Assembly (NCBI GenBank): GCA_007693535.1
Contig: REDK01000159.1
Location: forward strand, 12,047 to 76,046
Source of the DNA: Chromatiaceae bacterium
GTDB taxonomy: Bacteria; Pseudomonadota; Gammaproteobacteria; Chromatiales; Chromatiaceae
Reading direction: 5' to 3'
DNA length: 64,000 nt
Shown here: positions 42,358-59,047 of the stretch, piece by piece
Position numbering within the stretch: the first letter of the stretch is position 1
Layout of the letters: each line of letters begins with the position of its first letter
Program-made: the position numbers and the translations under genes
Notes under the pieces: generated by a model
What the model saw: only the letters and a program-made list of their open reading frames with translations
Told to the model about the DNA's origin: nothing
Database searches by the model: none

Positions 42358-45300
42358 TCACGCTAGCGGCCAACCGGGCATTGTGTTCAGGCCCGCGCGT
42401 GACGCGGCGTCGCGCAGGGCGGCGCGCAGGTCTTGGTGGCGCTCAAGCCAGGCGGCCATGGCGGTTCTCGCCGCGGGGTGTGCCGGGGCCAATTGCAACG
42501 CGCGCATGAGTTGGTCGACCGGGAAGCACTTGCGTCGGGTATCGATGACCTCCTCGGTGCGCACCAGCGCAAGCAGGTAGAGCAGCCGCAGCAGTGCGGC
42601 GTGCCGTTCAGCGTCGTGACCGCCAGGGAATTGCCCCCAGCCGCGATCAAACAACAAAATCCGTTCGGCAATCAGCAGATTGGCTCGCGGGTCGGCGATG
42701 AGTGCTGCCAGTGGTTGCGCCAGTGCGAACGCCGAACCGGCGATGAGGCGACCAAGGTGGATCGCGAAGTCGCTGTCGTGGGCATGGCTGTTGCCGAGTA
42801 ATGCGGCCGCCACCGCGGTTGGCATCCGGTAGGGGCGCGGTTGCGCCTGGCAGCGGTCGGGCACGAGCAGCGCGAAGAAGCTGATGGTGAAGCAGACCGA
42901 TGCATCGATCTGTGCGCGGACGCTCGGCGGGGCATCGCCATCGCCGCAGACTTCGGCAAGCGCAGCCAGCGCCTCGTTGGTTGCCGCCGCGGGCGGTGCC
43001 GCATCGGCCCCGCCGGCTCGCGGCGCCTGGAACCAGGGACCGGGCCGATCGCCGAAGAGTCGCGCCAGTTGGTTCCGCCCTGCCAATTGGTACCGCGGCT
43101 CTCGGCCTTCCCACAACCGCAGCCAACAGCGGGCCGCGCCAATGCCCAGTATGCAGCGCACGCGCCGCTTGGTCTCCGCGGTTGGCATGGTGATCTCCAG
43201 GGCCTGGTAGAGGCCGCGGTCGACAGCCCCCCGCCCGACTCCAAGGATGCTTGCCAACGCCCGGTCGCGTTCGAAGGGGGGCGTTAGGCCACCAAAATAG
43301 GCGCAACGCGGAAAGCCGAGCCGCCGGGCCAGCGCCCGTCGGATGGGCCGATCATGCCGGGTCAAGCGTTCATCCAAGTGGCAGCCGGACGGGTCGACAC
43401 CTGCCCAGGCGAGGAGGCAATGGGCGAGACTCAGGCCCAGCCGGTCGGCCGCCTGGAGCACCTGCACCTCGCTTGAGCGGCCCTGGGCGAGCAGCCAGTC
43501 GAGCCAATCGAACAGGTCGGTGACCGCCGCGACCGGCACGACCTCGGCGGCCAGCAGGCGGTCCAGCAGGACCCAGGCCAGATTGCCGATGCGGACGCGG
43601 ACGCGGACAGGGGCAGCGATCGGATTCTTGCCGACGCCCGTGGCCGACTTGCCGATGCGCTGGGTCAAGACCCGCACGGTCCGTTCGGCCAGCAGAGCGG
43701 GCGCCGCGCGGGGGTCCACGAGGGCGGCGTGCAGGCGCCGGTTGCAGGCCGTGGCCAGGGCCAGGCTGGGGATGCCGGCCGCCGCAGGCGGTGCCAGTGC
43801 CCGCAGATCCGGCAGTGCCACAAGCAGGTCCGCGGCAACCGCTACCGGGTCGGCGGCGGCCGGGACAATCGCGTCAAGGCAGGCGGCGAACAGGGCCGTG
43901 GCCGCGTGCTCGGCCTGGGTCAGATCGGCCTCGCCCCGGATGACCGCGTTGTAGCTGGGCTGTGCATACCGGTGCAACCAACGGAGCGCCCGCGTTGGCG
44001 GCAGGCCGCGCAGCAAACCGATCACCCCACCGCGCCAGACCGTTGACTCGGGGTCGCGGTCGCTGTCCGGGGCCAGCGCCCATTGCCAGTAGGCGCCGAG
44101 CAGCGCCTGCAGATGGCCCTTGGGATCGGCGCCGATGCGCGCAACGATTGCTGCCCGGTCATGGGCGAGGGACGAGGAGGCAGCGGCGACCCGGGCCGCG
44201 GCGGCGAACAGGTCTGGCGACCGGTCTGAAGCCCGGGCGGGCGGGCGGTCCAGTGCCGCTGCCGCGGTGCACTGTTGCAGGTGGGTTGCGATCAGCAGCG
44301 TGCCGACCAGTGCCTGCACCGCGTCCACCCAGGCCGGCGCATCGTCGGCGCGGGGAGTGAGGAGGCCCGGCTGTGCCGCGGCCAGGTCCAGCACGCTCGC
44401 CGGCCAGCGGATCAGCAGCCGCGGGGCATGCTGGCGCAGCGCCCGCAACCGCTGCTTCACTGCCGCGGCGGCGAGGATCGGCGCCACCAGTTCGGCGGTC
44501 GCGGGCGACTCGGCGCGGGCGCGGGCGACGGTGGTCACCAGCGCCCGCAACTCGGCAAAATCCCGCAGTTCGCCGAGCCGCGGCGCGGCTGCCTGTGGCC
44601 GCGCCCGATCAGCGCGCCGCTTGGTCAGGGGCCAGGCGACCAGCCGGTCGTCGGCCAACTGCGGCGCGGCATCGAGCAGCGGCGAGGCGGTCAATGCCGA
44701 CCAGCGCAAGGCTGCCCGCCCGCCGCGCTCGGCGACCTGCCACCAGGCGCGCGACCAGAAATCGACCTGCGCCTGGAGCGCCGCGTTCGGCGCCGTGCCG
44801 GGCAGATCGATCAGGGTCGCGAGGCGCCACAGCGCGCGGCCGAGCGCGCCGGGCGGGTCCGCGCCAGCGGCGTGGATCTGCTCGATCAGGGCGCTGAGCC
44901 AGTGCGCACCGGTCGCCCGCTGATGCAGCGCCGGGCGCGCTGGGCAATCCGGCAGCGCCCCCTGTAACCAGGTCACCAGTGCTGGCACCGAGCGCGCGGC
45001 GATGGCCTGATCGCAGGCTCCGGCGAAGTGCTGGCGCAGGCGGTCGGGCGCGATCGCGGCCGCGCCGGGGGCGGCCGCGAGGTCCCCCAGCAGCCGGTGC
45101 AGTTCATCACCGAAGCCGGCGCCGTCAGCGTCGCCCTCCGCGCGGGACCCGACCTGCTCGGCCCAGCAGCCTTGCCAATCCAACACCGAGAGCGGGGACG
45201 CGGCTCGGGCGGCCTGCCAGCCGGCGGCGACTTGCTCGAACAGCCCGGGCGCGGCCGCCGTAAGCGGCGCGGCATCAGGCAGATATTGCAGCGCAAACGG

Positions 45301-46011
45301 CCCGAGCGGCCGACTGAAACCGGCCGCGGCGCTGAGATAGATGCGCAACGGCACCGGCAGCAGCGCAGCGACGCAACTCAGCGCGGTCAGAAAGGTGTCC
45401 GGTGAATCGATCCGATCGGCGGCCCCGATCAGGAGCCGGGCGTTGGCATCCTCAAGCGCAGTGAGCAACCGCCACAGCAGGGTGCGCGGGGGTGGCAGCG
45501 GGTCCTGTTCGCAGCGCGGCGGCGGCAGTGCGGCGGGATCGAACCGCTCCATCGGGACCGGCGCGCCGGCAGCGAAGCGCGCGTAGTCGGTCTGGGTATC
45601 GGGTTCGGCACGCAGCCAGGCAGTGGCATGGGCGAGCAGCCGCGGGGCGGCAGGGTTCCAGACCGACTCCGGGAAGACCAGCGTCAGCAGTTGGGTATGG
45701 GTGCGCCCCGGGCCGCCCTCCCCGGCCTCGGGGCGCGCCCGCACGCAACTGGCGAGCATGTAGCGTTGCCCGTCGGCGGCTGCTGGCCAGAACCAGATGG
45801 CCCCGTCGCGCTCGCGCCCGGGATGGACCAGCGCCTGGATCGACTGATTGTCGAGCAATTGCCCCGGCCGGCACAGCGGCAGCAGGGCCGGCGGCAGGCC
45901 GGCGCTGATCCGGGTCGGGCGATGCTCGAAGCCCGGCGCGACCGGGCCGCCGGGGATCGCGCAGACCTTCCCGTGGACGAAACGGAAGGCCTCGATCGCC
46001 GGGGAGTTCAC
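42358..46011 (-). CDS. Hypothetical 1217-aa protein: small N-terminal alpha/beta-looking domain plus more than 1000 aa of Ala/Leu/Arg-rich sequence, presumably helical
   Basis: Uninterrupted 3.65-kb ORF with G/C-dominated third positions. The GTG start at 46011 overlaps the stop of the upstream micro-ORF (GTGA). N-terminus is FRFVHGKVCAIPGG…GFEHRPTRISAGL…RYMLASCVRARPEAGEGGPGRTHTQLLTLVFPE. No nucleotide-binding or catalytic motif was recognised. Confidence 0.75.
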   Translation of the reverse strand: MNSPAIEAFRFVHGKVCAIPGGPVAPGFEHRPTRISAGLPPALLPLCRPGQLLDNQSIQALVHPGRERDGAIWFWPAAADGQRYMLASCVRARPEAGEGGPGRTHTQLLTLVFPESVWNPAAPRLLAHATAWLRAEPDTQTDYARFAAGAPVPMERFDPAALPPPRCEQDPLPPPRTLLWRLLTALEDANARLLIGAADRIDSPDTFLTALSCVAALLPVPLRIYLSAAAGFSRPLGPFALQYLPDAAPLTAAAPGLFEQVAAGWQAARAASPLSVLDWQGCWAEQVGSRAEGDADGAGFGDELHRLLGDLAAAPGAAAIAPDRLRQHFAGACDQAIAARSVPALVTWLQGALPDCPARPALHQRATGAHWLSALIEQIHAAGADPPGALGRALWRLATLIDLPGTAPNAALQAQVDFWSRAWWQVAERGGRAALRWSALTASPLLDAAPQLADDRLVAWPLTKRRADRARPQAAAPRLGELRDFAELRALVTTVARARAESPATAELVAPILAAAAVKQRLRALRQHAPRLLIRWPASVLDLAAAQPGLLTPRADDAPAWVDAVQALVGTLLIATHLQQCTAAAALDRPPARASDRSPDLFAAAARVAAASSSLAHDRAAIVARIGADPKGHLQALLGAYWQWALAPDSDRDPESTVWRGGVIGLLRGLPPTRALRWLHRYAQPSYNAVIRGEADLTQAEHAATALFAACLDAIVPAAADPVAVAADLLVALPDLRALAPPAAAGIPSLALATACNRRLHAALVDPRAAPALLAERTVRVLTQRIGKSATGVGKNPIAAPVRVRVRIGNLAWVLLDRLLAAEVVPVAAVTDLFDWLDWLLAQGRSSEVQVLQAADRLGLSLAHCLLAWAGVDPSGCHLDERLTRHDRPIRRALARRLGFPRCAYFGGLTPPFERDRALASILGVGRGAVDRGLYQALEITMPTAETKRRVRCILGIGAARCWLRLWEGREPRYQLAGRNQLARLFGDRPGPWFQAPRAGGADAAPPAAATNEALAALAEVCGDGDAPPSVRAQIDASVCFTISFFALLVPDRCQAQPRPYRMPTAVAAALLGNSHAHDSDFAIHLGRLIAGSAFALAQPLAALIADPRANLLIAERILLFDRGWGQFPGGHDAERHAALLRLLYLLALVRTEEVIDTRRKCFPVDQLMRALQLAPAHPAARTAMAAWLERHQDLRAALRDAASRAGLNTMPGWPLA

Positions 46012-46088
46012 GGTCGCCGGGCCACGCTCAGGGCCAATGCCAAGGCCAACATCGGGACCAACATCGGGGTCAACATGAGGGTCAGCAT
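46008..46088 (-). CDS. Candidate 26-codon hydrophobic micro-ORF bridging the GTPase-like gene and the 1217-aa gene
   Basis: MLTLMLTPMLVPMLALALALSVARRP. Its ATG overlaps the GTPase-like gene's stop (TAATG) and its TGA overlaps the downstream GTG start (GTGA). It is built from the 12-bp repeat array. Confidence 0.3.
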   Translation of the reverse strand: MLTLMLTPMLVPMLALALALSVARRP

Positions 46089-46102
46089 TAGGGCCACAAT
46101 TC
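46029..46102. repeat. Imperfect 12-bp tandem array, about 6 units
   Basis: Coding-strand units are ATGCTGACCCTC / ATGTTGACCCCG / ATGTTGGTCCCG / ATGTTGGCCTTG / GCATTGGCCCTG, plus a degenerate unit inside the upstream gene's 3' end. Confidence 0.75.
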
Positions 46103-47308
46103 GTCGTAACGATGAATTAGTGTGCCGCGCCGATCGCGGCAGCCGGTGGCAATGAAGATGAACGGGTCGAGGGTCAGGAACGGTTGCCACCAGCGCTGGC
46201 GGACCTGGTCCGGATCGTAGTGCCCGGGGGCATCGGGGTTCGGCTGGGGACGCGTCAGCAGCGTATCGGCGCGCTCGCCGCCCGCCGCGGTCGGGGCGAG
46301 ATTGGCACCGCCATTGGCGGGGACAAAGCCGAAGGTCGAGACCGGCACGCACCAGACGGTGCGGCCGTGTCGGGGATCGTGGAACTGGCCCAGGGCATTG
46401 TTGACAGCGGCCAGGTGGTCGGTGAGCGCGTGCGCCATCTCGGCGCGCGCCCGCTCGCGCCGGGCCAGTTCGCGGTAGGCATGGCGCCCGGCCGCAACGC
46501 CCTGCTTCTCGTACATGGTGAAGCAGATCAGCAGCCGGCGCAGGGCCGGCTGATGGATGAAACCGTGGATGTATTCCTTGAGTGCCTGCTCTTGATCGGG
46601 GCGAATCCAGCGCGACAGCGGCAGACAGATCAGCAGGGTGTCGCAGTTGGCCAGGGCCTCGCTCAGCAGCGCCCGGCAACGCTGGAAGCCCGGATCGGTG
46701 GGGGCCAGGTCCTCTACCAGCAGACCGCCGACGCCATCGAAGGCGCTGACACTGGTGAGCGAGAGGACGCGGGCACCTTGCTGTCGACGCAGGTAAAGGC
46801 GAAACCCAGGACGCAGGCAAGTCCCAAGATCGGAGGCATCGAGGCTCAGCCCGCGCGGCAGATAGCGATCGAGCCAGCGGTTGAGCTGGATGAAGTCCGG
46901 GTTGCGGTCGGCAATGGTCGCGTTATAACGCCCGGCGTAGGAATGGCCGCGGGCATCGGCGCAACGATCGAGCGACATCAGGAACAGGGTCTTGCCGGCG
47001 GCGCTCGGGCCGATCACCACGCACCGACTGACTGCAGTGCGCCTGGCTAGTGCGCCGCGGCGCAGTCGGGCAACCGCCCGCCGCCACCAGGACGGACGGC
47101 CCGCCACTGAACCGGTGCCGGTCTCCCCGCCGGGCCCCGGCTCGAACCCCGCATCCGAGTCCGAGTCCGGTGCTGGTGCCGGCCCTACTGCCGCGTCGGC
47201 GGCGGCGGGTCGCTGCGCAGCCCCGGCGGCTGGCCCCAGGCCCGTGGCCGGATCGCTGTCGAGGTCCAGATCGAGGTCGAGAGCAGGCTCGACGCGTCGC
47301 TCGGTCAT
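46088..47308 (-). CDS. P-loop NTPase, GTPase-like, with a disordered acidic/Pro-Ala-rich N-terminus
   Basis: Walker A/G1 is VVIGPSAAGKT (nt 46988-47011). A DxxG-type G3 candidate is SAFDGVGG. A possible degenerate G4 is ICFTMYEK and a possible G5 is CVPVSTFG. The first roughly 95 aa are low complexity (DLDLDLDSD, PAPAPDSDSD). First gene of the minus arm. Confidence 0.7.
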   Translation of the reverse strand: MTERRVEPALDLDLDLDSDPATGLGPAAGAAQRPAAADAAVGPAPAPDSDSDAGFEPGPGGETGTGSVAGRPSWWRRAVARLRRGALARRTAVSRCVVIGPSAAGKTLFLMSLDRCADARGHSYAGRYNATIADRNPDFIQLNRWLDRYLPRGLSLDASDLGTCLRPGFRLYLRRQQGARVLSLTSVSAFDGVGGLLVEDLAPTDPGFQRCRALLSEALANCDTLLICLPLSRWIRPDQEQALKEYIHGFIHQPALRRLLICFTMYEKQGVAAGRHAYRELARRERARAEMAHALTDHLAAVNNALGQFHDPRHGRTVWCVPVSTFGFVPANGGANLAPTAAGGERADTLLTRPQPNPDAPGHYDPDQVRQRWWQPFLTLDPFIFIATGCRDRRGTLIHRYDELWP

Positions 47309-47466
47309 GATTGCCGTCCGGGTTGCAGTTGCTCGCTCGTCAGTTGCCAGGCCTTTGGTATTGTACGGGTCGCAGCGCCGGCCGGTTGGCGTCGGCCTCT
47401 CGTGAGGCTGGGGACCGGGGTCGGCGCAGGAATCCGAACTGATCGACGGAGGAGGTGGTCGCGTTG
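47309..47466. promoter_or_regulatory. Divergent control region between the two arms of the five-gene cluster
   Basis: 158-nt gap between divergent starts. A strong SD, GGAGGAGG (47448-55), lies 11 nt before ATG 47467. No confident -35/-10 pair was identified. Confidence 0.35.
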
Positions 47467-50400
47467 ATGGAACCGCCGGAGTGCGTCTGGGACGCCGAAC
47501 AGGGGCTGGTCGTTTTGTACCGTCATGCCGCGGATCGCGCGCCCCAGGCCGACCTCAGTCTGGTGGTCGCGCCAGATGCCGCACCTGCCTGGTACGCCGG
47601 CGACTTTCCGGCCGACTGGCCGCTGTGGGCCATCAAGGCACCCGGCAGCGGGTCTTTCCGGCTGCTCGGCTATCCGCGCGGGGCCCTGCCCCCGACCGGC
47701 CCGGCCAGGCGCGCGGCGGCCGCCGCGTCGCCTCATCCGTCTATCGACCCGTCTATCGATCCGGCCGCCGACCCGTCCCCTGGCCTGGCGGACGGTAGCC
47801 TATTCAGTATCCGCTTCAGCGCCGCCCTGCGGCTCGACCTCCGGCGACCCGCTAGCCCCGGACATCCGATCCGCGCCTGGCTATTCCATCCGCCTGCCAG
47901 CGGCGGCCAGGCGCCGGCGGTACAACCGCTGTCGGTGCCCAACGACTGCAGCCTGGTCGCGGCCCTCGAGACCTGGGGCTGGCGGCCCGGCGGCCCAGTC
48001 GGGCTTGCGGCCATGTGTCAGACCGGGGGCCAGACCGGAGGCCAGACCGGGCACCAACCAGGGCGCCGCCTCGGTAACGCGCGCGGCCCGCTCATGACGC
48101 CGCTCCAAGGGGCGGCCATCGACTGCATCTTTACGCTGGTGCCGGACGCGGAACCGCCCGAACTGACGCTACCCGGCTTCCAGCACCTGCAGGCACCGGC
48201 GCTCGCGCTGGACCTGACCGCCTTCGGGGCGGCGGCCGATAACGTTCGCACCGCCTTCTGGTGCTTTCATCATCCGCACGGACCTGGACGCGACATTCGC
48301 CACTGGTCGGGGCACGAACTACCGCTGGTCGATGATGCGGAGGGCCGCCGGTTGCTGGTCTGCCGTTTCGACGACGCTTGCCACCTGGATCGATTCGGCG
48401 TCTATTTTGCCAGCGGCGCGCGGCTGCATCCGCGCGACGATGCCGAGCCCGACCGGGCGCCCACGCTGGCCCTGCAGGGCCCGGCCGCTGCTGGCGGTGC
48501 CGAATGCCTGGTGGCGCTCTTCCGTGGTGACACCTGCCATCTGCTGCCCTCACAGGCCCCCCGCTATGCGGCCGTGGGGCGGGAATACTGCAGCGACGCC
48601 GACCCGGGCGGATTCGACCTGCCGCGCGCTGCCGCCTGGCTCGCAGCCGACCCGCGCCTGGGCGCCGCCCCGGACGTCGACTGGCATGGGGCGGGCGCGG
48701 CCTCGGCCTTCACCCTGCTGGCCTATGCCGATGTCCTGACGCGCCTGCTCGCGGTGCCCATGTCCGCTGCTGCGCGCGCTGCCCACCGCCAGGTCCAGGC
48801 GCAGGGACTGCTGGCCTTTGCCGGGTTCACGCGCCGGCCCGACCTGGCCTTCGCATTGCTGGCCGAGCCGGCGCTGCGCGCGCGGCTCGCGGCCAGCGCG
48901 ACCCGCCCCGGCGCCCTGCTGGACCCGACCCTGACTGCCCCGGTGGCGGCGCTCGCCGCCGCCCTCGAACCGGACGCCGGCGATCTCGGTGCCTGGGTGG
49001 CGGCCGCATCGCCGTCCACGCAACAGGCACTGTGGCAGTTTCTGCTCGCGGGCGGGCAGGCGAGCCACTGGCAGGCACTGCACCTGCAGCCGGATGACCT
49101 ACCGGACGACCTCGCGGCCTTCGCCGACCGGTTGCGGCATGCCTTTGCCGAGCTGCCCGCCTGGATCGTCGCCACCCGCGCCGACCTGGGCCAGCCGCCA
49201 CTGCCGGACCTGCCACTGCAGCGGCTGGCCGATGCCGAGGCGCGCGCGGCCGGCCGCACCGCCGCCGCGGCCGCAGTCCGCGCGGAGTTCGACGGCATCG
49301 CTGCGCTGCTGCCCCGCGCGCGCGCCCGCGGCGGCGACGCGCTGATACAGGCCTTCGGCGCAGCGCTCGACGGCGGCCGGGTCGCCGCTACCGAGGTGCT
49401 GCGACGGCGGCTGCTAGCGGCACTCGCCGGCGGCGACCCTAGACGCCTGACACTGGCGATGCTGGTCGCCGAATTACGCACCCGCGCGGTGCTTTGGGGG
49501 CTGAGCGAATGGCTGGCGGTGCGGCCCATGGCCGCGCCAGAGGACCCCGTGGCAGCCGGACCGGCAACCAGTTCGGCATCGGCACTACCGGTGCCGACAA
49601 TCGATCCGGCACCGGCGCCGTTGATGAATCCGACCCCGGCGCCAACGCCTGAGCCGGCACCTGAGCTGACGCCTGAGCCGACACTGGCGCCGGCACCGGC
49701 ACCTGACGCCGCACCGGCAGCCCCGGCAGCGGCACCGCGCCCCCAGTTCGCGGCCAGGCCGCACGGCCAATCGGCACGACGGATTGCGCTGGTTGAACTC
49801 GCACCCGCACCAGCGCCCACCCCAGGGCCGGCGGCAGCGCCAGCGCCCGGACCAGGCCCCGCGGTTAGCCCTCAATCCGAACCGGTGTCCAACCTGGTAT
49901 CCGCAGCGATCACCGCGGATCAACCAACACCGACACCGGCAACCACACCAACCCCATTGGACCCAGCCGCGGTGCTGCGCTGGTGCGACCGGGTACTCGC
50001 TCGCGCCGCGCCCGACTGGCCGCCGCCCGGCGGAGCAACCGCACCGCTCGACGCCGCGGTGCGCACTGCACAACTGGCCGAACTCTATGAGGTCTGGGGC
50101 CTCGATGATCCGCAACCGGTCGCGCTGCCCGCCTGGACCGGAGCGCGCGCTGCAGCCCATGCGCGGCACGCTGCGGCCATCGCCGCCACCGGCTGGCAGA
50201 TGCGCGAGGCACTGCTCGCGGCCGGCGCGACGGGCCTGCTCGGATTGGTGGACCGGCTGGTCGCCGCCCGCGAGCAACTGGCCGCCGACGCCGTCCACGC
50301 CGGGCTGCGCGCCGAAATCGACGCGGCGCGAGCAGCGGCCCGCCGGCCGGCAGGATGCCAGCCCCACGAGAGCGCAGCGGCACTGGCCGATCTGGCGCGG

Positions 50401-50502: not shown

Positions 50503-52979
50503 CCCCCTCCGGCTTCTGGCGCACACTCTGGGAGAAGCTGCTGCGCTCGCCGTATCTGCTACTCCTGTTCGTCGCCAGCGTGCTGCTGTCGATCGCCTCG
50601 TTCTGGACCACCTACATCGGCATCACCCCGTTCGTCGGGGTAGCGGTGTTCGCGTTCTTCATCACCGCTGCGATCCAGTCGCTGCTGTTCGTCGTCTCCT
50701 GGCGGCTCGGCTTCATGTTCGCCGGCAAAGAGGGCGTGGCCAAGGTGGACCTGCTGGTCTTCCTGGTCACCTTCACGCTGTCGGTGTTCTTTTCGTTCAA
50801 CGCCCTGTTCAACGTCATCTTCGCCGAGGAACTGCGGACCGAGGCCAGCCTGACACGCGTGCGCGACGGTGCCCTGGGTGCGGTCAACCAGGCCGAGGCC
50901 AAACTGGTGCGCCAGGCTGCGGACCAGGCCGCGGCCCTGCGCGAGAGCCCCGACTACGCGCGTTGGCGTGCCGATGTGCTGGACGTCGCCGACTTGGCCC
51001 AGCGCGCCGGGCCGGCGATGCGCGATCTGCTCGACACGCAGCGCGAGCAACAGCGCAGCGAAGCCACGCGACTGACGCGAGAGGCGCGCGAACTGGCCGC
51101 GCGCAAGGGCACCATCGAGGATGAGATCGAGCAGCGGCGCGTGCGGCTCGATCGGCTGCGCGAGCAGCGGGAGCCGGAACGCACGGCCCTGGACGCCCTC
51201 ACCGGCGAGGAGCGGACCCTGGAGACCGAGGTGGTGCAACGCCTGGCTGCCCGCGACGCCGAGGAGGGCGGCATCGGTGAAACCGGCCGGGCCGGGCGCG
51301 GGCCGGTATGGGCCGCGCTGGATACCGAATACCGCCGCGCCGAGGCCGACCTGCTGGCGCTGCGCCAGCAGGCCGAGATCCGCCGTCAGCGCCTGGCCGA
51401 GTTGGACGCCGAGATCCGCGACGCAGGCGAGCAACTACGGCGCGATGAGGCCCTGTTCGCTGACCTCGACGGCGAGATCGCGGCGGCCGAGCGGCGCGCC
51501 ACCGAGGCCCGCGCGCGGCTGACGACGCTGGGAGAGGAGGTCGGCATGGAGGCCGGTGTGCAGCAGTTGCGCGACTTTCCGACCCGCTTCGAGGAGACCG
51601 GCGACCCCGGCCACCTGGCCCAGGCCGAACAGCTTTGTACCCAACTGCACGATAACCTGCGCACCGTCCCCGCAGTGGCCGGCGAACTCGACGGACTATC
51701 CTGCGATCGTGGCCCGATCGCCCCGCTAGTCCAGGCGCTGACCGAGACTCGCGCCCTGCGCGCCGCGCTGCAACGGCAATGCACCAGCCCCGACGCGCCG
51801 AGCTTCTACGAGATGGCCCCCGAACAGGCGCTGGCCGCCGCGCGCGCCTGTCTGGACCTGTCGCGACTGCCGTTCGCGCAACTGCGCGGCGAGCGCGGCG
51901 AACTCGATCGGCTACAGCGCGAAGAAGGCCCGCACGCCTCGGAGTTCACCCGCACCACCAATGCACTCTTTGCGGGCGAGAAACTGGCAGTGTTCTCGCT
52001 GGTGCTGGCCCTGTCGATGGACCTTCTGGTGCTGTTCACCGGCCTGATCGGTGCCAAGAGTGCGCGGACGACCTTCGCGATTCGGGTGCTCGAACCGCGT
52101 CATGACGACGACCCGCGGGTGTTCGCGATCAAGGCCCTGCTGCGCCATCTGGCGCCGTTCACGGCGCGCATCGACGGTGTGTTGTATCAGGGCCAGATCG
52201 ATCTCGACCGGATTCATAACCCGCGCGAGCGTGACCTGATCGGGCAACTGCTCAAACGCAACAGCGCCTCGGGCATGACGCGCCCGGTCGCCGACGACGA
52301 GTCGGCCTTCCTGCTCCGCTACGGCGCACTCGAGCAGCTCGAGGAGCAACTCGACCGCCACACCAGGGGACGTGCCGCGGCGCCCGTCGCGCCGCCTCCC
52401 CCCGGCCCGACGCCAGGTCGGCACGTGCCGCAGGTTGAGCCACCGCGCCCGGTTGGTCTCGGCGGCCGCCTCGGCAACGCCGTGCCGCCACCGCCGCGTC
52501 GGCATCGCGACCAGCCCGCTGCCAACGCCGAGCAGGGCACCGTCGCATCGGCCACTGCTGGGTGGGGCGGCGCCACTGCGGGCACCAACTCCAGGGGCAC
52601 GGATGCCGACTTCGCAGACAGCGTTGGCGGAGCCGCCGACTGGAACCTGGCCGACCGCGAAATGCCATGGGCGGTCGGGGCCGCCGCCGTGCCCGATGCC
52701 TGGCAGGATTGGACCGACCCACCCGCCAAGCCCGCGCCGACCAGACCGGACCCTGCCGCTGACGCGGACGCACTCGGCGGTGCCCGGTGGGGTTCCGGGG
52801 TCAACCCGGCCGATCCCGGGCCCGCGGACCCCGAGTGGGCGGCCAGTCACCACGGGACAAGCGGCCACCCCGTTGCGGACGACGATCGGGCCCGCGAAGC
52901 GGCCGCAGCCGACCGCGACGACATCTACGACCTGTTCTATCACGCCGAGCCCGGCCGCAAGCCGCCGGGGTCGGACTGA
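50499..52979 (+). CDS. Membrane protein: 3 N-terminal TM helices, roughly 370-aa coiled-coil, fourth TM, small globular region, disordered Pro/Ala/Gly-rich C-terminus
   Basis: TM helices: LLLLFVASVLLSIASFWTTYIGI, FVGVAVFAFFITAAIQSLLFVVSW, VDLLVFLVTFTLSVFFSFNALFNVIF. This is followed by heptad-like charged sequence (…REARELAARKGTIEDEIEQRRVRLDRLREQRE…RQQAEIRRQRLAELDAEIRDAGEQLRRDEALFADLDGEIAAAERR…). The fourth TM is LAVFSLVLALSMDLLVLFTGLIG (about nt 51984-52052). Confidence 0.8.
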   Translation: MTPSGFWRTLWEKLLRSPYLLLLFVASVLLSIASFWTTYIGITPFVGVAVFAFFITAAIQSLLFVVSWRLGFMFAGKEGVAKVDLLVFLVTFTLSVFFSFNALFNVIFAEELRTEASLTRVRDGALGAVNQAEAKLVRQAADQAAALRESPDYARWRADVLDVADLAQRAGPAMRDLLDTQREQQRSEATRLTREARELAARKGTIEDEIEQRRVRLDRLREQREPERTALDALTGEERTLETEVVQRLAARDAEEGGIGETGRAGRGPVWAALDTEYRRAEADLLALRQQAEIRRQRLAELDAEIRDAGEQLRRDEALFADLDGEIAAAERRATEARARLTTLGEEVGMEAGVQQLRDFPTRFEETGDPGHLAQAEQLCTQLHDNLRTVPAVAGELDGLSCDRGPIAPLVQALTETRALRAALQRQCTSPDAPSFYEMAPEQALAAARACLDLSRLPFAQLRGERGELDRLQREEGPHASEFTRTTNALFAGEKLAVFSLVLALSMDLLVLFTGLIGAKSARTTFAIRVLEPRHDDDPRVFAIKALLRHLAPFTARIDGVLYQGQIDLDRIHNPRERDLIGQLLKRNSASGMTRPVADDESAFLLRYGALEQLEEQLDRHTRGRAAAPVAPPPPGPTPGRHVPQVEPPRPVGLGGRLGNAVPPPPRRHRDQPAANAEQGTVASATAGWGGATAGTNSRGTDADFADSVGGAADWNLADREMPWAVGAAAVPDAWQDWTDPPAKPAPTRPDPAADADALGGARWGSGVNPADPGPADPEWAASHHGTSGHPVADDDRAREAAAADRDDIYDLFYHAEPGRKPPGSD

Positions 52980-52995
52980 CCCCGGCGCTGACGGG

Positions 52996-55839
52996 ATGGA
53001 CCGCTCCCGTTGGTGGCCGCGGACCCTGATCGGGCTCGGCCTGCTGCTCGGCGCGGCGCTGGCCCCGGCGGCACCACCGTTGACAGTGCTGATCGATACC
53101 TCGGGGTCGATGGCCGACCACGACCCGCGCCGCCATGCGCTGCATCTGCCCAAGGTACTGGCCCGCGCGCTGCCGGCCCTGGCCACCGAGCTGGTCGTGG
53201 TCACTGCCGACGGCACTGCCTGCACGGCCGATGCCGCCGCGATACTGCGCCGCGACCCAGCCGCGCTAGCCGCCTTCGACACGGCCCTGGAGGCGGTCGG
53301 CTATGCCGACGAGAACCGCTTCGCGGCCCCGCTCGCCTGGCTGCGCGCGACCCTGACCCCGGCGGGACAGGCCGCGCTACCGGGCCGCGAGGTCCTGCTC
53401 ATCGCCGACGCCGCCGGGCAGCGGCGCGCCGACCGCCGGGCCGCGGTGGATTTCGAGATCGCCCGGCGCGTCACCGCCGCCGGTGGCCGCCACAGCGACG
53501 TGGATGTGCGCGTCTCGCTGCTCTGGAACACCCGCGATGACCTGGATCTGTTCGTCACCGCACCATCGGGGGAGGTGATCTACTTCGGCAACGCAGGCTC
53601 GGCCTGCGGCGGCCGGCTGGACGTGGATCGCAACTACCGCCACACCACCCGCGAGCCGGTCGAAAACGTGCGCTGGCCACGTGGTCGGGCCCCGGCGGGG
53701 CAGTATCGGGTCCGGGTGCGTAATTACGCCTTCAAGGAACCCACCCGCGCACCGGTCCCGTTCACGGTCGAGATCGAGACCGGCGGCGAGGTCAGCACCC
53801 ACCGCGGGATAATCTCGCCGCGCGGTGAGACCGGTGCCGCCAGCGAGATCGCCGTCGCCGAGTTTCGCTTCGACCGCACCCCACCGCCGCCGCCGGCGGA
53901 CGCAACCGCGATCGACGCCGCGCTCGCCGCCAGCGACCGTGCCCTGCACCCGGCCGCGGCCGGCTGCGCCAACCCGCTCGGCGACCTGCGGGCGCTGCAC
54001 GCGGGCGGGGTGCGCTTGACCGCCATCACCCCCGGGGCCGCCACCAGCCCGTTTGCCGATGCGCGCGTGCTGGCTGCTACCCGGCCGCTGCGCAGCCAGG
54101 CCGATCTGGTCGCAACGGTCGCCGCGGTGGCGGCTCGCCACGGCCGACCCGGGCTCGCACACGATAGCGGCAGCGGGCGGGTCCGGCTCGAGGTGCCGCC
54201 CCATATCGGGCGCCTGTGGCTATTGATCAGCGCCGATACCGACCTGGCCGGGCTGCGCCCGGCGGCCGACAACCCGCCCGCCGCCGCGGTGCGGTTGGAA
54301 TCGACACCGGCACGCACCACCCACCTGGACGGCACTGGCGCCAGCGGGGTCAGGCTATTAGAACTGGAGCATCCGGCGCCTGGCACCTGGACCTTCACGA
54401 CCGGCCATGCCGGGGTAGCGGTCGGCTGGCTCAGCGAACACATCCCGGCGCTCGCGGTACGCATGGAACCTGCAGCGCCGCTCTATCGCGACCGACCCGG
54501 CACGGTCCGGTTCATGGTCATCGACCCGGCCCGTGGCGCACCGCCGGACGCTCCGGGTCCACTGGCCCTGAGCGCCGAACTCGACGGCGTCCCGCTCGCG
54601 CTGACCGCCGACGGCCCGGGGCGCTGGAGCGCCGAACTCACGCCAACCGCGACCAGCGCGGTAATCACCCGCCTCGACTACGCCGCCGGCCGCCGCGAGC
54701 AGCGCCTGCCGCTGCCAGTGACTGCCGCCGCCTGGCGCTTCGAGCCAACCCTGCCGGCCCGCCACCGGCGCGACAGGCCGCTGCTACTCGGCGGCCAGTT
54801 GCACCCGCTGCCCGATGCCCCGGCCGGCGCCGCCCCGCCCGCGGTGCTGATCGCCCGGCTCGACGACGGCACCCGCCTCGAGCTGCGCGACGACGGCACC
54901 GGGGATGGCCGCTACAGCGCGCACTGGACCCCCAACAGCAGTGGCCCGCGCACACTCGCATTCAGCGGCCAGGGCGGCGCCCCGATGGTCCCGGCAAGCG
55001 GTCGCATCGAGGTCATCGACTGGGCCGAACTGGCCGGCCCGGCGCGACTCGACTTCGGCCCAATCGCCAGCCGCGAGCAGCGCGGCGTCGCGCTCGATCT
55101 TGGCCCCTCGCGCATCCACGGCCCGCTGGAATTGATCATCAGGCTAACCGGCAGCGACGGCCGCCTGCCGCTCGCGCTGAGTACGGCCACCGCGAGCATC
55201 CCGCTCCTCCCCGACGTGCCAGTGCGCCTGCCGGTCGGCAGCGATGACCTGCACCGGGCGCTGGCGCACTGGGCGCTGACCCTCACCGCCCCGCGCTGTC
55301 CGCCGGCCAGTGCCAACCTCGGCGGACTGATCATCGAGACCGGCGCCGACGGCCCCGACCAGCGGCTCGTGATTGCCCTCGCCGCGCAGCCGCAACCGCG
55401 GCCCTGGTTCATCTGCCTGCTGCCGCTGCTGCTCGGCTTGCTGCTGCTTGCGCTGCTCTTGGCCATCGCCTGGGGCTTCATTTCCCCGGCGCGCTTCCCA
55501 CGCAATCTGGGCGTGGTGCTGTCACCCGAGGAGGACCTCGACGAGGGCTTCTTCCAACTGCTGCGCGCCCGCAGAGGCACCGGTGCCGGCTTCTACCGCG
55601 ACGCCCGCGCCTGCATCGGTGCCGATTTCCGCATCGGCGGCCGCCGCCAGGGCGCGGTCGCCTGCCTGATCGCAGGTCGCCCGCGCCCGCGCCTGCGCGT
55701 GCTGCCCGGCCAGGTGCTCGAACGCCGCGACCTGGCCGGCGATTGGCAACCGCTCGACTCCGGTGAGCAGCCGCTGCGCCTGGGCGAGACCTATCGCACC
55801 GCTAGCGGCAACCTATACCTGGAATTTCGGACGCTGTGA
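52996..55839 (+). CDS. Secreted/anchored protein: signal peptide, vWA-like domain, DUF2135 (YfaP)-like domain, long beta-rich region, C-terminal TM and 118-aa cytoplasmic tail
   Basis: ATG 52996 is in frame within track ORF 52372..55839, 17 nt after the upstream stop. Signal-like N-terminus is MDRSRWWPRTLIGLGLLLGAALAPAAP. MIDAS-like motif is VLIDTSGSM (vWA about nt 53077-53430). The DUF2135-like stretch is VRVSLLWNTRDDLDLFVTAPSGEVIYFGNAGSACGGRLDVDRNYRHTTREPVENVRWPRGRAPAGQYRVRVRNY (about nt 53497-53871). The TM helix is WFICLLPLLLGLLLLALLLAIAWGFI (55405-55482). Confidence 0.8.
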   Translation: MDRSRWWPRTLIGLGLLLGAALAPAAPPLTVLIDTSGSMADHDPRRHALHLPKVLARALPALATELVVVTADGTACTADAAAILRRDPAALAAFDTALEAVGYADENRFAAPLAWLRATLTPAGQAALPGREVLLIADAAGQRRADRRAAVDFEIARRVTAAGGRHSDVDVRVSLLWNTRDDLDLFVTAPSGEVIYFGNAGSACGGRLDVDRNYRHTTREPVENVRWPRGRAPAGQYRVRVRNYAFKEPTRAPVPFTVEIETGGEVSTHRGIISPRGETGAASEIAVAEFRFDRTPPPPPADATAIDAALAASDRALHPAAAGCANPLGDLRALHAGGVRLTAITPGAATSPFADARVLAATRPLRSQADLVATVAAVAARHGRPGLAHDSGSGRVRLEVPPHIGRLWLLISADTDLAGLRPAADNPPAAAVRLESTPARTTHLDGTGASGVRLLELEHPAPGTWTFTTGHAGVAVGWLSEHIPALAVRMEPAAPLYRDRPGTVRFMVIDPARGAPPDAPGPLALSAELDGVPLALTADGPGRWSAELTPTATSAVITRLDYAAGRREQRLPLPVTAAAWRFEPTLPARHRRDRPLLLGGQLHPLPDAPAGAAPPAVLIARLDDGTRLELRDDGTGDGRYSAHWTPNSSGPRTLAFSGQGGAPMVPASGRIEVIDWAELAGPARLDFGPIASREQRGVALDLGPSRIHGPLELIIRLTGSDGRLPLALSTATASIPLLPDVPVRLPVGSDDLHRALAHWALTLTAPRCPPASANLGGLIIETGADGPDQRLVIALAAQPQPRPWFICLLPLLLGLLLLALLLAIAWGFISPARFPRNLGVVLSPEEDLDEGFFQLLRARRGTGAGFYRDARACIGADFRIGGRRQGAVACLIAGRPRPRLRVLPGQVLERRDLAGDWQPLDSGEQPLRLGETYRTASGNLYLEFRTL

Positions 55840-57383: not shown

Positions 57384-57670
57384 CGCTGGTCTCCCTGGCA
57401 GGGCACTTGGCGCTGTGCGGGTGGAATGGGCATGGCACGGGCGGATACACCGTCCCTGACAGGGGCTCGCGGCATCCCGGCGGGGGCCGCGGCAAGCCGC
57501 GTTGCGACAGCCTACCAGGCCCGGGCAGATCGGCGGCGCGCAACGGCTCGCCCCCAGAACCTGACCGGTGCCGACCTGGCCAACGCCGCGAACCAGCGCC
57601 ACCCTCCGTCCGAGCGGCCGCACCTCACGCATCGTCGGCCCGTCGCTGGCGGTGGCTGGCGCAGATCGGG

Positions 57671-58833: not shown

Positions 58834-58872
58834 CGACGATATCACCGCAGCGGCCGGCGCGCGGCGCTGATG

Positions 58873-59047
58873 GCCGCGGCCATGCCGGGGGCATCGGCCA
58901 GCACCAGCAGCCGCACCAGGGTGGCCTGCATCCGCGCGATCCGCCGTCGCCCCAGGTTGACCTCCCCGAACAGCAGATAGGCCAACAACCCGAGCAGCGG
59001 CAGCGCGGCGATCACCAGCACCCAGGCCATGCGCGCGGCCGGATCGC
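58873..59047 (-). pseudogene. Duplicated fragment of the cls 5' coding region (direct repeat copy 2)
   Basis: Encodes …[38 protein letters not shown]…, identical to cls residues 34 to about 70, but lacks the cls start and everything downstream. Confidence 0.85.

What the first reader, a model, noticed from the sequence alone, without database searches (positions are those of the whole stretch)
42358..55839. Divergent five-gene cluster combining a GTPase-like P-loop protein, two giant proteins of more than 1000 aa, a TM/coiled-coil protein and a secreted vWA/DUF2135-like protein: candidate undescribed system
The 13.5 kb lie between the glycan locus and cls and are organised around one 158-nt divergent control region.

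The minus arm runs P-loop GTPase-like protein (406 aa), 26-codon micro-ORF, 1217-aa protein, with stop/start overlaps at both junctions. The plus arm runs 1011-aa protein, 826-aa 3TM / coiled-coil / TM protein (ATGA-coupled), then a 947-aa exported vWA + DUF2135-like protein with a TM anchor and cytoplasmic tail.

The parts suggest a trans-envelope apparatus: an extracytoplasmic ligand-binding vWA module, a membrane coiled-coil scaffold and a cytoplasmic NTPase switch with a huge helical partner.

No component matches a named secretion, motility, defence or toxin system that I can recognise. The closest conceptual relatives are the GTPase-centred and vWA-containing multi-component conflict systems described by comparative genomics (Kaur, Burroughs, Iyer and Aravind 2020). 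Membership is unproven, and a cell-envelope or cytoskeletal role is equally possible. The block is by eye more GC-rich and more low-complexity than the adjacent glycan genes.
Basis: partly seen in the sequence, partly recalled or inferred. Interest (0 to 1): 0.85.

Follow-up and report, generated by a model that had tools for sequence, protein, structure and literature searches.

The report
Rare GTPase-centred trans-envelope gene system
A rare but conserved gene cluster in purple sulfur bacteria links a divergent 'double-GTPase'-type switch protein and two giant cytoplasmic proteins to two membrane proteins predicted to reach into the periplasm; no part has a known function, so it is a good candidate for an uncharacterised envelope-sensing or defence machine.

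Summary
The cluster is not a chance grouping. All five proteins have homologues in the same A-B<->C-D-E order in several other Chromatiaceae or metagenome loci, and the flanking genes differ between loci. None of the five hits Pfam, NCBIfam or PADLOC. An exhaustive profile search links the P-loop protein B to Pfam DO-GTPase2 (hhalign 99.2 %, E 1e-19 to a member above threshold), the GTPase of the predicted 'GTPase-centric conflict systems' of Kaur et al. 2020. No GAP1, GASH or FNIII partner was detected, so this is a new variant and not a member. The conserved core is B, the N-terminal domain of A, and C. D/E is one of two interchangeable envelope modules; sister loci carry a PBP transpeptidase (± FtsW/RodA) instead. 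D models as three TM helices, a coiled-coil hairpin with a conserved tip, a four-cysteine bundle, a fourth TM helix and a small cytoplasmic domain. I infer that the hairpin is periplasmic. E is an anchored vWA-like protein with a conserved cytoplasmic tail. The best reading is a GTPase-gated trans-envelope sensing or assembly system. Whether it serves defence or envelope remodelling is open.

The parts
42358..46011 (-). Gene A: 1217-aa cytoplasmic giant protein, translationally coupled downstream of the GTPase. It is present in 1-3 tandem paralogues in related loci.
   Evidence: ORF. No Pfam, NCBIfam, PADLOC or PDB sequence hit. Homologues lie downstream of B in L002 (3 copies), L006, L007 (at least 2 copies), L008, L009, L010, L012, L014, L017 and L018.
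45262..46011 (-). N-terminal domain of A (about residues 1-250). This is the best-conserved part of A and the only part kept in the most distant loci. I infer that it is the GTPase-binding or regulatory module.
   Evidence: Conservation profile. The A-family HMM, positions 8-146, matches the gene downstream of the GTPase in L014 (1.8e-23), L015 (a 274-aa stand-alone protein, 1e-14), L017 (9e-15) and L018 (9e-27).
46008..46088 (-). 26-codon micro-ORF that bridges the B stop (TAATG) and the A start (GTGA). It contains 12-nt imperfect repeats and is probably a translational-coupling relay, not a functional peptide.
   Evidence: Sequence. A 21-codon ORF with an unrelated sequence sits at the same place in L006. 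In L002, L007, L008 and L009, B and A overlap directly.
46088..47308 (-). Gene B: 406-aa TRAFAC-class GTPase-like P-loop protein, a divergent relative of Pfam DO-GTPase2. The N-terminal 90 residues or so are disordered.
   Evidence: AF2 model, pLDDT 66.5, pTM 0.67. Foldseek hits only GTPases: eEFSec, Hbs1, GIMAP2, IniA, mitofusin, YcjX, BDLP, MglA. The profile search found 304 relatives, and 36 of 128 scanned hit DO-GTPase2. hhalign to a DO-GTPase2 member that scores above threshold gives 99.2 %, E 1e-19.
46988..47011 (-). Walker A / P-loop of B (GPSAAGKT, residues 100-107).
   Evidence: Invariant G100, P101, G105 and K106 in the family alignment.
47309..47466 (.). 158-nt divergent intergenic region between B and C, presumed to carry the promoters. 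No sigma-70 consensus was found.
   Evidence: Sequence. The promoter scan found none in 42-56.2 kb. The same divergent layout is seen in all related loci.
47467..50502 (+). Gene C: 1011-aa cytoplasmic giant protein (1015 aa from the GTG at 47455) with a Pro/Ala-rich linker at about residues 690-850. It is unrelated to A.
   Evidence: ORF. No family hits. hhalign A against C gives probability 0.2 %. Homologues hold the same position in L002, L006-L010 and L012, L014 (3.7e-14), L015 (1e-6) and L018 (1.4e-14).
50499..52979 (+). Gene D: 826-aa inner-membrane protein and the most conserved component. Layout: 3 TM helices, a long antiparallel coiled-coil hairpin, a 4-Cys helical bundle, TM4, a small cytoplasmic alpha/beta domain and a disordered tail.
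   Evidence: AF2 model, pLDDT 72, above 90 for residues 120-480. Hydropathy. 19-member family alignment. Foldseek returns only generic coiled coils, E >= 1.8e-3.
50820..51977 (+). Loop of D between TM3 and TM4 (residues 108-493): the coiled-coil hairpin H171-256/H269-346 plus a helical bundle with invariant C380, C402, C428 and C451. I infer that it is periplasmic.
   Evidence: Secondary structure. Invariant cysteines; the same Cys spacing is kept in the distant L015 homologue. The periplasmic side is inferred from three preceding TM helices and from Lys/Arg clusters at the N-terminus, in the TM2-3 loop and after TM4.
51267..51302 (+). Conserved Gly-rich tip of the D hairpin (residues 257-268, within the motif DAEEGGIGETGRAGRGPVW).
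   Evidence: Non-helical turn between the two long helices. E255, G258, G263 and G268 are invariant.
52113..52376 (+). Small cytoplasmic alpha/beta domain of D (residues 539-626).
   Evidence: AF2 elements H539-549, E552-558, E561-568, H575-589, E594-597, E600-607 and H610-626, pLDDT about 80. Conserved K545, Y563, R578, N588 and R607.
52996..55839 (+). Gene E: 947-aa exported, membrane-anchored protein. Layout: signal peptide, split vWA-like domain with a DxSxS motif, DUF2135-like insert, beta-rich (Ig-like) region, one TM helix and a conserved cytoplasmic tail of about 113 aa.
   Evidence: ORF. Family alignment. Seven full-length homologues. Sub-threshold Pfam hits: VWA_2 0.13, DUF2135 0.083, P_proprotein 0.0075. 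The L010 homologue hits VWA at 0.0017. TM.
53440..53877 (+). DUF2135-like beta-rich insert in the vWA-like domain of E (residues 149-294).
   Evidence: 46 % identical over 146 aa to a domain in unrelated 676-700-aa proteins (P0019-P0021). The insert is absent from the Lamprocystis purpurea E homologue.
55396..55836 (+). TM anchor of E (residues 801-834) and its conserved cytoplasmic tail (835-947), of unknown fold.
   Evidence: Hydropathy. These are among the best-conserved segments of E (0.67-0.77 identity per 50-residue block, comparable to the DUF2135-like insert at 0.65-0.73). The segment is retained in the relocated L010 homologue. No Pfam hit at E <= 10.

Best explanation
The cluster encodes a GTPase-gated, trans-envelope sensing or assembly system. 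It is a new, divergent variant of the DO-GTPase-centred ('GTPase-centric') systems predicted by comparative genomics.

Shown:
- B is a TRAFAC GTPase-fold protein homologous to DO-GTPase2.
- B is always followed by A, in most cases with a stop/start overlap. The N-terminal domain of A is the one part kept at all distances.
- C is always encoded divergently.
- D is a four-TM protein with a long coiled-coil hairpin.
- E is an anchored vWA-like protein with a conserved cytoplasmic tail.

Inferred:
- B bound to the N-domain of A is a nucleotide-dependent switch or timer. B lacks a catalytic Gln/Glu after its DxxG motif, so a partner may supply or regulate catalysis.
- The hairpin of D, which is about 85 residues per arm and carries four conserved cysteines, projects into the periplasm. 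Together with the MIDAS-bearing ectodomain of E it engages a periplasmic or envelope ligand, or detects a perturbation there.
- The conserved cytoplasmic domains of D and E pass that state to the giant proteins A and C, whose assembly the GTPase gates.

The output is most likely an envelope-directed protective response (conflict or stress) and not housekeeping. No effector domain is recognisable.
For: Conserved synteny with homology for every component, and unrelated flanks: L002, L006, L007, L008, L009, L010.

Rarity:
- 11 B-family and 19 D-family clusters among 5.8 billion proteins.
- 2 loci among 185,579 species genomes.
- Every named source is Chromatiaceae.

GTPase fold. Link to DO-GTPase2.

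Tight B-A coupling by GTGA/ATGA overlap in L002, L007, L008 and L009, or through a bridging micro-ORF in the window and L006. In L010 and L012 the two genes are adjacent and separated by about 10-15 nt.

The A N-domain accompanies the GTPase even at E about 1e-22 divergence.

D model and invariant cysteines.

E features:
- Invariant D34, S36, S38 and D138.
- Conserved tail kept even when the gene is relocated.

Envelope theme:
- The sister module carries a PBP transpeptidase, with FtsW/RodA in one case.
- Kaur et al. describe TM and extracellular-vWA components in GAP1-N2 systems (PMC7159879).

Hallmarks of diversification: A is present in 1-3 tandem paralogues at 34-40 % identity to the window copy, and modules are swapped between loci.
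Against: - No effector, toxin or nuclease domain is recognisable, and PADLOC gives no hit.
- A shows no GAP1 domains and C, D and E show no GASH or FNIII.
- The G4 position of B reads TMYE in place of [NT]KxD, so guanine specificity is unproven.
- The periplasmic placement of the D hairpin rests on charge bias, TM count and cysteines. It was not checked with a dedicated topology predictor or by experiment.
- The B model has only moderate confidence (pLDDT 66.5) and low TM-scores to solved GTPases (0.22-0.37).
- The cluster was not found on plasmids, phages or viral contigs, and in the window it lies among housekeeping genes.
- No expression data are available.
Confidence: 0.45

Rival explanations
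1. The system is an accessory envelope-morphogenesis or peptidoglycan-remodelling machine and not a conflict system. The GTPase and the giant proteins form a cytoplasmic scaffold that positions or activates periplasmic activities. In the window's type these act through D/E; in the sister type they act through a dedicated PBP-SEDS synthase pair. Possible uses are specialised cell-wall growth, cell-cell contact or aggregate formation.
For: In three independent sister loci the divergent arm ends in an operonic PBP transpeptidase, and in one of them FtsW/RodA follows. No toxin or effector domain is found anywhere. D forms a long hairpin that I infer to be periplasmic, and E carries an adhesin-like vWA/Ig-like ectodomain. 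In the window the cluster lies beside glycan-synthesis and cardiolipin-synthase-like genes.
Against: The distribution is extremely patchy even within Chromatiaceae. Insertion sites vary. A is expanded in tandem paralogues and modules are swapped, both more typical of accessory or conflict loci. The window's type carries no PBP or SEDS. The homologous DO-GTPases were assigned, by prediction only, to conflict systems (PMC7159879).
Confidence: 0.3
2. The system is a surface-adhesion or export device. E is the functional adhesin or ligand binder, and A-D serve only to insert, anchor or regulate it.
For: E has a signal peptide, an invariant DxSxS + D motif, Ig-like repeats and a TM anchor. One E homologue weakly hits an invasin domain (Invasin_D3, E 2.5e-4, below threshold).
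Against: E is the least constant component. It was not found within the sequenced part of L012, L013, L015 or the type II loci, and it is relocated in L010. No secretion-system family is detected. E stays anchored in the inner membrane by a C-terminal TM helix with a conserved cytoplasmic tail, which fits signalling better than export.
Confidence: 0.08
3. The genes are unrelated or spurious ORFs that a high-GC genome throws up by chance, and there is no system.
For: At about 70 % GC, long spurious ORFs are frequent on all frames. None of the five has a database family.
Against: Each of the five has protein-level homologues at 34-68 % identity in the same order in independent contigs. Conserved motifs and confident AF2 models exist for B and D.
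Confidence: 0.01

Closest known systems
DO-GTPase / GAP1 'GTPase-centric' conflict systems (Kaur, Burroughs, Iyer & Aravind 2020, eLife 9:e52696; Pfam DO-GTPase1/2, GAP1-N1/N2/M/C, GASH)
   Same: - The GTPase is homologous: the B profile reaches a DO-GTPase2 member above threshold at 1.8e-16, and hhalign gives 99.2 % over 275 columns, including the shared C-terminal SxYGF, NxD and WxPFxxxDPF motifs.
- A large partner gene lies directly downstream of the GTPase, as GAP1 does.
- Both have membrane-proximal components and an extracellular vWA protein, as described for GAP1-N2 systems.
- Both are mobile, patchy neighbourhoods.
- The type II sister loci contain a protein with weak HSP70-like matches, which echoes the HSP70 theme of GAP1-N2 systems.
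   Different: - B itself does not reach any Pfam DO-GTPase threshold.
- There is one GTPase and not a pair, and no N-terminal zinc ribbon.
- The Walker B region is DGxGG without the family's conserved Glu.
- GAP1-N/M/C, GASH and FNIII are not detected.
- No recognisable effector or EAD domains are present.
- The partners A, C, D and E are families of their own.
- The known systems are themselves only predicted. The paper search found no experimental study of them.
vWA (MIDAS) ectodomain membrane proteins, e.g. the TM-vWA components of GAP1-N2 systems
   Same: E has an N-terminal beta-strand followed by DTSGS (DxSxS), a later hhhhADxxG motif and a C-terminal membrane anchor. The vWA-like domain is extracytoplasmic.
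   Different: Pfam VWA models are matched only below threshold: 13.4 bits against 27 for E, and 19 against 23.8 for the L010 homologue. The domain is split by a DUF2135-like insert of about 146 aa. No MoxR-type AAA+ partner is present.
Long antiparallel coiled-coil hairpins (SMC arms, chemoreceptor signalling domains, Tc-toxin helices). Periplasmic-adaptor alpha-hairpins are a comparison from memory only.
   Same: D is predicted with high confidence to form a hairpin of about 85 residues per arm with a conserved turn. Foldseek's best matches are MukB, Smc5/6 and Rad50 arms, MCPs and TcdA1.
   Different: No match is significant (best E 1.8e-3, TM <= 0.20). D has its own 3TM + 1TM topology, a four-cysteine bundle and a cytoplasmic alpha/beta domain. 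There is no ATPase head, HAMP domain or methylation region.
YcjX (DUF463) stress-associated GTPase of E. coli
   Same: YcjX gives the highest query-normalised structural overlap with the B model: 6nz5_B TMq 0.37 over 451 columns and 6nz4_A TMq 0.33. Both are enlarged GTPase domains of about 400 aa with insertions.
   Different: Sequence identity is 10-13 %, there is no profile hit, and the partner genes differ. That YcjX pairs with the membrane protein YcjF is recalled from memory and was not tested here.

Membership tests
DO-GTPase/GAP1 GTPase-centric systems (Kaur et al. 2020) | The GTPase belongs to the DO-GTPase family of the TRAFAC class | tested here: met
   Homology is established transitively. 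The B-family profile hits P0105 at 1.8e-16. P0105 scores 28.5 bits on PF19993 DO-GTPase2 (cut-off 27) over model positions 5-192 of 226. hhalign of the B family against P0105 gives 99.2 %, E 1.1e-19. 36 of 128 distant relatives hit DO-GTPase2. B itself has no direct Pfam hit, so it is a divergent sister branch.
DO-GTPase/GAP1 GTPase-centric systems (Kaur et al. 2020) | Conserved glutamate in the Walker B motif of the GTPase | tested here: not met
   The B clade has F-D-G-x-G-G-L, with no Glu in or directly after DxxG. Some distant relatives have DGxGE. The exact position meant by the authors was not checked against their alignment.
DO-GTPase/GAP1 GTPase-centric systems (Kaur et al. 2020) | Two paralogous GTPase genes (present in 38 % of systems) and/or N-terminal zinc ribbons | tested here: not met
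   There is one GTPase gene per locus in the window and in L002-L018. The N-terminus of B is disordered and lacks Cys clusters. In contrast, the DO-GTPase2 locus L016 has a second GTPase downstream.
DO-GTPase/GAP1 GTPase-centric systems (Kaur et al. 2020) | GAP1 protein (GAP1-N1 or -N2, GAP1-M, GAP1-C) encoded downstream of the GTPase | tested here: not met
   A occupies the GAP1 position, but seven A-family members gave no GAP1 hit in Pfam at E <= 10. Profile-profile comparison with the GAP1 models could not be run.
DO-GTPase/GAP1 GTPase-centric systems (Kaur et al. 2020) | GASH protein (with GAP1-N1) or FNIII-repeat protein (with GAP1-N2) | tested here: not met
   C, D and E give no GASH or FNIII hit. 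The Ig-like region of E is uncharacterised.
DO-GTPase/GAP1 GTPase-centric systems (Kaur et al. 2020) | Variable effector domains or EADs attached to constant core components | tested here: inconclusive
   No effector or EAD domain is detected. Variability does exist, as A paralogue number and D/E-versus-PBP module swapping.
von Willebrand factor A domain (Pfam VWA/VWA_2) | Score above the Pfam gathering threshold | tested here: not met
   VWA_2 scores 13.4 bits (cut-off 27) on the spliced E domain. VWA scores 19 bits (cut-off 23.8) on the L010 homologue.
von Willebrand factor A domain (Pfam VWA/VWA_2) | MIDAS motif DxSxS plus a downstream Asp | tested here: met
   D34, S36, S38 and D138 are invariant in the five-member E alignment. 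The motif is DTSKS in the L010 homologue.
DUF2135 (PF09906) | Score above the Pfam gathering threshold | tested here: not met
   13.4 bits against a cut-off of 22, E 0.083, covering only 31 of 48 model positions. The precomputed label PF26675 on related domains is not in the Pfam copy available here.
Known anti-phage defence systems (PADLOC-DB v2) | Any component matches a defence-system model | tested here: not met
   The only hit is a coiled-coil-type match of D to LmuB at E 0.01, 13 bits.

The most novel reading that the evidence does not exclude
B, the N-domain of A, and C define a previously unrecognised family of GTPase-gated trans-envelope machines with interchangeable periplasmic modules. 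One module is the D hairpin plus the E vWA receptor (this window). The other is a dedicated PBP-SEDS peptidoglycan synthase pair with an HSP70/actin-like giant protein (sister loci). If so, this would be a new bacterial principle in which a DO-type GTPase switch couples periplasmic ligand sensing to localised envelope or cell-wall remodelling. It would also give the wholly uncharacterised DO-GTPase superfamily its first testable function.
Probability: 0.25. Interest if true: 0.85.

Novelty: new variant of a known kind. Interest (0 to 1): 0.68.

Why it matters
The paper search returned only the 2020 comparative-genomics paper on DO-GTPase-centred systems and no experimental study of them.

This cluster is a compact, effector-less variant. 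Four of its five proteins (A, C, D, E) belong to families with no entry in Pfam, NCBIfam or PADLOC and no sequence match in the PDB. It occurs in a cultured organism, Lamprocystis purpurea.

The predicted architecture gives concrete experiments: a cytoplasmic GTPase with giant scaffolds, a hairpin with a conserved tip and four cysteines that I infer to be periplasmic, and an anchored MIDAS receptor.

The recurrent swap of D/E for a PBP-SEDS pair in sister loci suggests these GTPase systems act on the cell envelope. That would refine, or challenge, their current assignment as conflict systems.

Tried and rejected
- **Direct family assignment.** Pfam, NCBIfam and PADLOC on all five proteins gave nothing significant. 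Lenient scans of sub-domains and of seven A-family members gave only sub-threshold or chance hits.
- **Sequence search of the PDB** with profiles of B, A, C, D and E gave only P-loop or coiled-coil noise.
- **A and C as paralogues.** Rejected: hhalign probability 0.2 %.
- **Micro-ORF as a conserved micropeptide.** Rejected. It is absent from most loci, and the ORF at the same position in L006 has an unrelated sequence.
- **Fixed five-gene unit.** Rejected. E was not found in the sequenced part of L012, L013 and L015, and it is relocated in L010. D/E are replaced in L014, L017 and L018.
- **Transglutaminase-like gene as a sixth component.** One lies next to A in the window and another follows E in L009. 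The two show no BLAST similarity and other loci lack one, so I treated this as unproven.
- **Horizontal-transfer island on GC grounds.** Not supported. The cluster's GC matches other window regions.
- **Mobile-element origin.** D gave no plasmid hit, and neither B nor D gave a viral-contig hit.
- **Sigma-70 promoters and terminators.** No promoter-like site was found in 42-56.2 kb. Terminator-like sites numbered 2 against 3.7 expected by chance.
- **Foldseek of D for a specific family.** Only generic coiled coils came back.
- **Structures of E, A and C.** A also exceeds 1200 aa.


Full report
**Source and observation**

The window comes from a metagenome-assembled Chromatiaceae genome. The P-loop protein and the TM/coiled-coil protein are identical to NCBI entries EA400_15785 and EA400_15795, 'MAG: Chromatiaceae bacterium'.

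- A: 42358-46011(-), 1217 aa
- B: 46088-47308(-), 406 aa
- C: 47455/47467-50502(+), 1015/1011 aa
- D: 50499-52979(+), 826 aa
- E: 52996-55839(+), 947 aa

The 26-codon micro-ORF (46008-46088) overlaps the B stop as TAATG and the A start as GTGA. C and D overlap by ATGA. With the ATG at 47467, which follows a GGAGGAGG run, the divergent spacer is 158 nt.

The flanks are a glycosyltransferase, an asparagine synthase and a transglutaminase-like gene on one side. On the other side are a PLD-type (cardiolipin-synthase-like) gene, then ModE and modBC-like genes.

GC is higher than in the neighbouring glycan genes (0.69-0.745 against 0.59-0.66). It is no higher than in other parts of the window, so this is not an island signature.

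**Is it a real unit?**

Yes. The close B family has only 11 clusters among 5.8 billion proteins. Every context that could be read repeats the layout: the GTPase followed by A on one strand, and C-D(-E) on the other.

tblastn finds homologues of all five proteins in four loci:
- L002, a JGI metagenome contig of 81 kb. Identities are A 34 %, B 44 %, C 37 %, D 53 %, E 45 %, and A is present in three tandem paralogues.
- L006. Identities are B 53 %, C 40 %, D 68 %, E 51 %.
- L008, 'Candidatus Thiosymbion' ectosymbiont of Robbea hypermnestra.
- L009.

In L007 (Chromatiaceae MAG PL23a_bin.8) the contig ends after D.

The flanking genes share nothing between loci. A scan of one genome for each of 185,579 species found only two loci, both Chromatiaceae. 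The D family has 19 clusters, including one from the cultured Lamprocystis purpurea, where it is misnamed 'ABC transporter permease'. D gave no plasmid match, and neither B nor D gave a viral-contig match.

**What the parts are: B**

Pfam, NCBIfam and PADLOC give nothing significant for any of the five proteins.

An AlphaFold2 model built from 11 sequences (pLDDT 66.5, pTM 0.67) matches only GTPases in the PDB: eEFSec, Hbs1, GIMAP2, IniA, mitofusins, BDLP, MglA and YcjX. The E-values are about 1e-5 to 1e-4 and the TM-scores are low, 0.22-0.37.

An exhaustive HMMER search of 1.84 billion representative proteins with the B profile found 304 relatives at E <= 1e-3, of which 25 reach 1e-30. Of 128 distant relatives scanned, 36 hit Pfam DO-GTPase2 and 3 hit DO-GTPase1. 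One of them, P0105, scores 28.5 bits against the curated cut-off of 27. It aligns to the B family by hhalign at 99.2 % probability, E 1e-19, over 275 columns. The alignment includes the shared C-terminal motifs SxYGF, NxD and WxPFxxxDPF.

B is therefore a divergent sister branch of the DO-GTPases of Kaur et al. 2020 (PMC7159879). It differs from them in three ways:
- The G4 position reads TMYE, against TKxD or TKYE in relatives.
- The Walker B region is DGxGG, with no Glu or Gln after it.
- There is one GTPase gene and not a pair.

**What the parts are: A and C**

Both lack predicted TM helices, apart from one marginal hydrophobic window in A (715-733, score 1.85 against a 1.8 threshold). Both are rich in Ala, Leu, Arg and Pro, and both are without any family or PDB sequence match. 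They are unrelated to each other.

The first 250 residues or so of A are its best-conserved part. They are the only part that accompanies the GTPase in the most distant loci:
- A stand-alone 274-aa protein in L015 (1e-14).
- Full-length homologues in L014, a Neomegalonema MAG (1.8e-23), in L017 and in L018.

In L002, L007, L008 and L009, the B stop and the A start overlap directly (GTGA or ATGA). Only the window and L006 have a bridging micro-ORF, and the two peptides are unrelated. I read the micro-ORF as a translational-coupling relay and not as a functional peptide.

**What the parts are: D**

D is the most conserved protein, at 45-68 % identity to the window copy in the loci that also keep E. 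The AF2 model, built from 19 sequences, has pLDDT 72 overall and above 90 for residues 120-480. It shows, in order:
- Three N-terminal TM helices.
- An antiparallel coiled-coil hairpin (H171-256 and H269-346) whose turn is the conserved Gly-rich motif EEGGIGETGRAGRGP.
- A helical bundle with four invariant cysteines (C380, C402, C428, C451).
- A fourth TM helix.
- A small alpha/beta domain (539-626).
- A disordered Pro/Gly tail.

Foldseek finds only generic coiled coils: SMC, MukB and Rad50 arms, chemoreceptors and Tc-toxin helices, with a best E of 1.8e-3.

I infer that the hairpin is periplasmic. Three TM helices precede it. Lys/Arg clusters lie at the N-terminus, in the TM2-3 loop and after TM4. 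The cysteine spacing is retained in the very distant L015 homologue.

**What the parts are: E**

E has the following features:
- A signal-peptide-like N-terminus.
- An invariant DTSGS...D motif.
- An insert of about 146 aa.
- A beta-rich, Ig-like region.
- One TM helix.
- A strongly conserved cytoplasmic tail of 113 aa.

The insert is 46 % identical to a domain in otherwise unrelated proteins. The vWA and DUF2135 labels remain below Pfam thresholds.

**The unit is modular**

In Lamprocystis purpurea (L010) the E homologue lacks the insert and sits downstream of A instead of D. In L012, L013 and L015, no E is seen next to D within the sequenced part of the contig.

In a sister group, the B + A (+ C) core is kept but D/E are replaced. 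This group comprises L014, L017, L018 and the context of P0061. The replacement genes are:
- A mutually homologous protein of about 1150-1240 aa, with weak, recurrent HSP70-like matches.
- A small TM protein.
- A protein of about 540-670 aa.
- In three of the four loci, an operonic PBP transpeptidase, followed in one case by FtsW/RodA.

The constant core is therefore B, the N-domain of A, and C. The variable part is an envelope-directed module.

**Mechanism**

Shown:
- B has a GTPase fold and is homologous to DO-GTPase2.
- B and A are adjacent in every locus read and overlap, directly or through a bridging micro-ORF, in most of them.
- The arrangement is conserved.
- D has the modelled architecture described above.
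- E has the listed sequence features.

Inferred:
- B bound to the N-domain of A acts as a nucleotide switch or timer. The missing catalytic residue after DxxG suggests that a partner supplies or regulates catalysis.
- The hairpin of D, stabilised by disulfides, and the MIDAS ectodomain of E engage a ligand or perturbation in the periplasm.
- The conserved cytoplasmic domains of D and E relay this to A and C, whose assembly the GTPase gates.

The biological role is open.
- For a conflict or stress role: the patchy distribution, variable insertion sites, tandem A paralogues, module swapping and the predicted role of DO-GTPase systems.
- For an envelope or peptidoglycan-remodelling role: the PBP-SEDS link in sister loci and the absence of any effector domain.

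I put 0.45 on the GTPase-gated trans-envelope sensor with a protective role, 0.30 on accessory envelope morphogenesis, 0.08 on an adhesion or export device, and 0.01 on a chance grouping of ORFs. The remaining probability is for functions I have not thought of.

**Comparison and novelty**

The closest known kind is the DO-GTPase/GAP1 'GTPase-centric' system. GTPase homology is met. The Walker B Glu, the paired GTPases, GAP1, GASH or FNIII, and recognisable effectors are not met. I therefore do not file the cluster as a member.

It works like these systems in outline: a GTPase, a large downstream partner, and membrane and extracellular-vWA components. The partner families are its own. That makes it a new variant of a known, and so far only predicted, kind. 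The paper search found no experimental work on DO-GTPase systems.

**Limits**

- Topology and nucleotide specificity are untested.
- The GAP1 and GASH comparisons were HMMER-only.
- The neighbourhood survey covers about 15 loci, not the whole superfamily.

Noticed in passing
L014 1465-5007, L017 1-6690, L018 1-7156, and the P0061 context: Sister ('type II') loci keep the GTPase + A (+ C) core. D/E are replaced by a homologous protein of about 1150-1240 aa with weak HSP70-like Pfam matches, a small TM protein and a protein of about 540-670 aa. Three loci also carry an operonic, unusually long PBP transpeptidase (921-1011 aa). In one locus a 1186-aa FtsW/RodA-family protein follows.
   Followed up: partly
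window 40298-42196 (+); L009 10470-11813: A transglutaminase-like gene converges on the 3' end of A in the window. A different transglutaminase-core + Ig-like gene follows E in L009. The two show no BLAST similarity, so the association may be coincidence or a recurrent accessory theme.
   Followed up: partly
window 46020-46085 (-): The B-A spacer and micro-ORF are built from imperfect 12-nt repeats (ATGTTGACCCCG / ATGTTGGTCCCG / ATGTTGGCCTTG / GCATTGGCCCTG). This suggests a recent repeat expansion that separated the normally overlapping B stop and A start.
   Followed up: partly
window 58848-59045 (-): A 73-aa stretch is 85 % identical to residues 112-184 of the PLD/cardiolipin-synthase-like protein encoded at 55926-57632. 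It looks like a partial duplicate or a pseudogene fragment.
   Followed up: no
window 22642-22902 (+): An 88-aa stretch is 44 % identical to residues 78-164 of the transglutaminase-like protein (40298-42196). A paralogous N-terminal module lies elsewhere in the glycan region.
   Followed up: no
window 14000-20000: A second block of very high GC (0.73-0.75) lies between regions of about 0.60-0.67. It contains long ORFs at 18033-19586(-) and 19280-21508(-). It was not examined.
   Followed up: no
L006 3426-4718 (-) and 271-531 (-): In this close relative a 430-aa alpha-amylase / glucanotransferase-like gene is inserted between D and E. A short KAP-family P-loop fragment follows E.
   Followed up: no
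L002 1-1415 (-); L009 11893-15282 (+): Additional large genes of unknown family (1018 aa and 1129 aa) lie directly downstream of E on the same strand in two loci. They are unrelated to each other and to the five core proteins, and may be variable cargo.
   Followed up: partly
P0039 (Lamprocystis purpurea, KB902491.1; L010 10001-12238): The D homologue of a cultured species is annotated 'ABC transporter permease' in public databases. Neither Pfam nor the predicted fold supports that name.
   Followed up: partly
P0092: A 2693-aa protein matches the B profile in 12 separate stretches, with the best at profile positions 211-267. This may be a repeat or a low-complexity artefact.
   Followed up: no
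L015 17778-19559 (-); L012 12428-12988 (-): A TIR-domain protein lies about 6 kb from the cluster in L015, and a Uma2-family endonuclease gene lies next to D in L012. These are weak hints of a defence-island setting in some loci.
   Followed up: no
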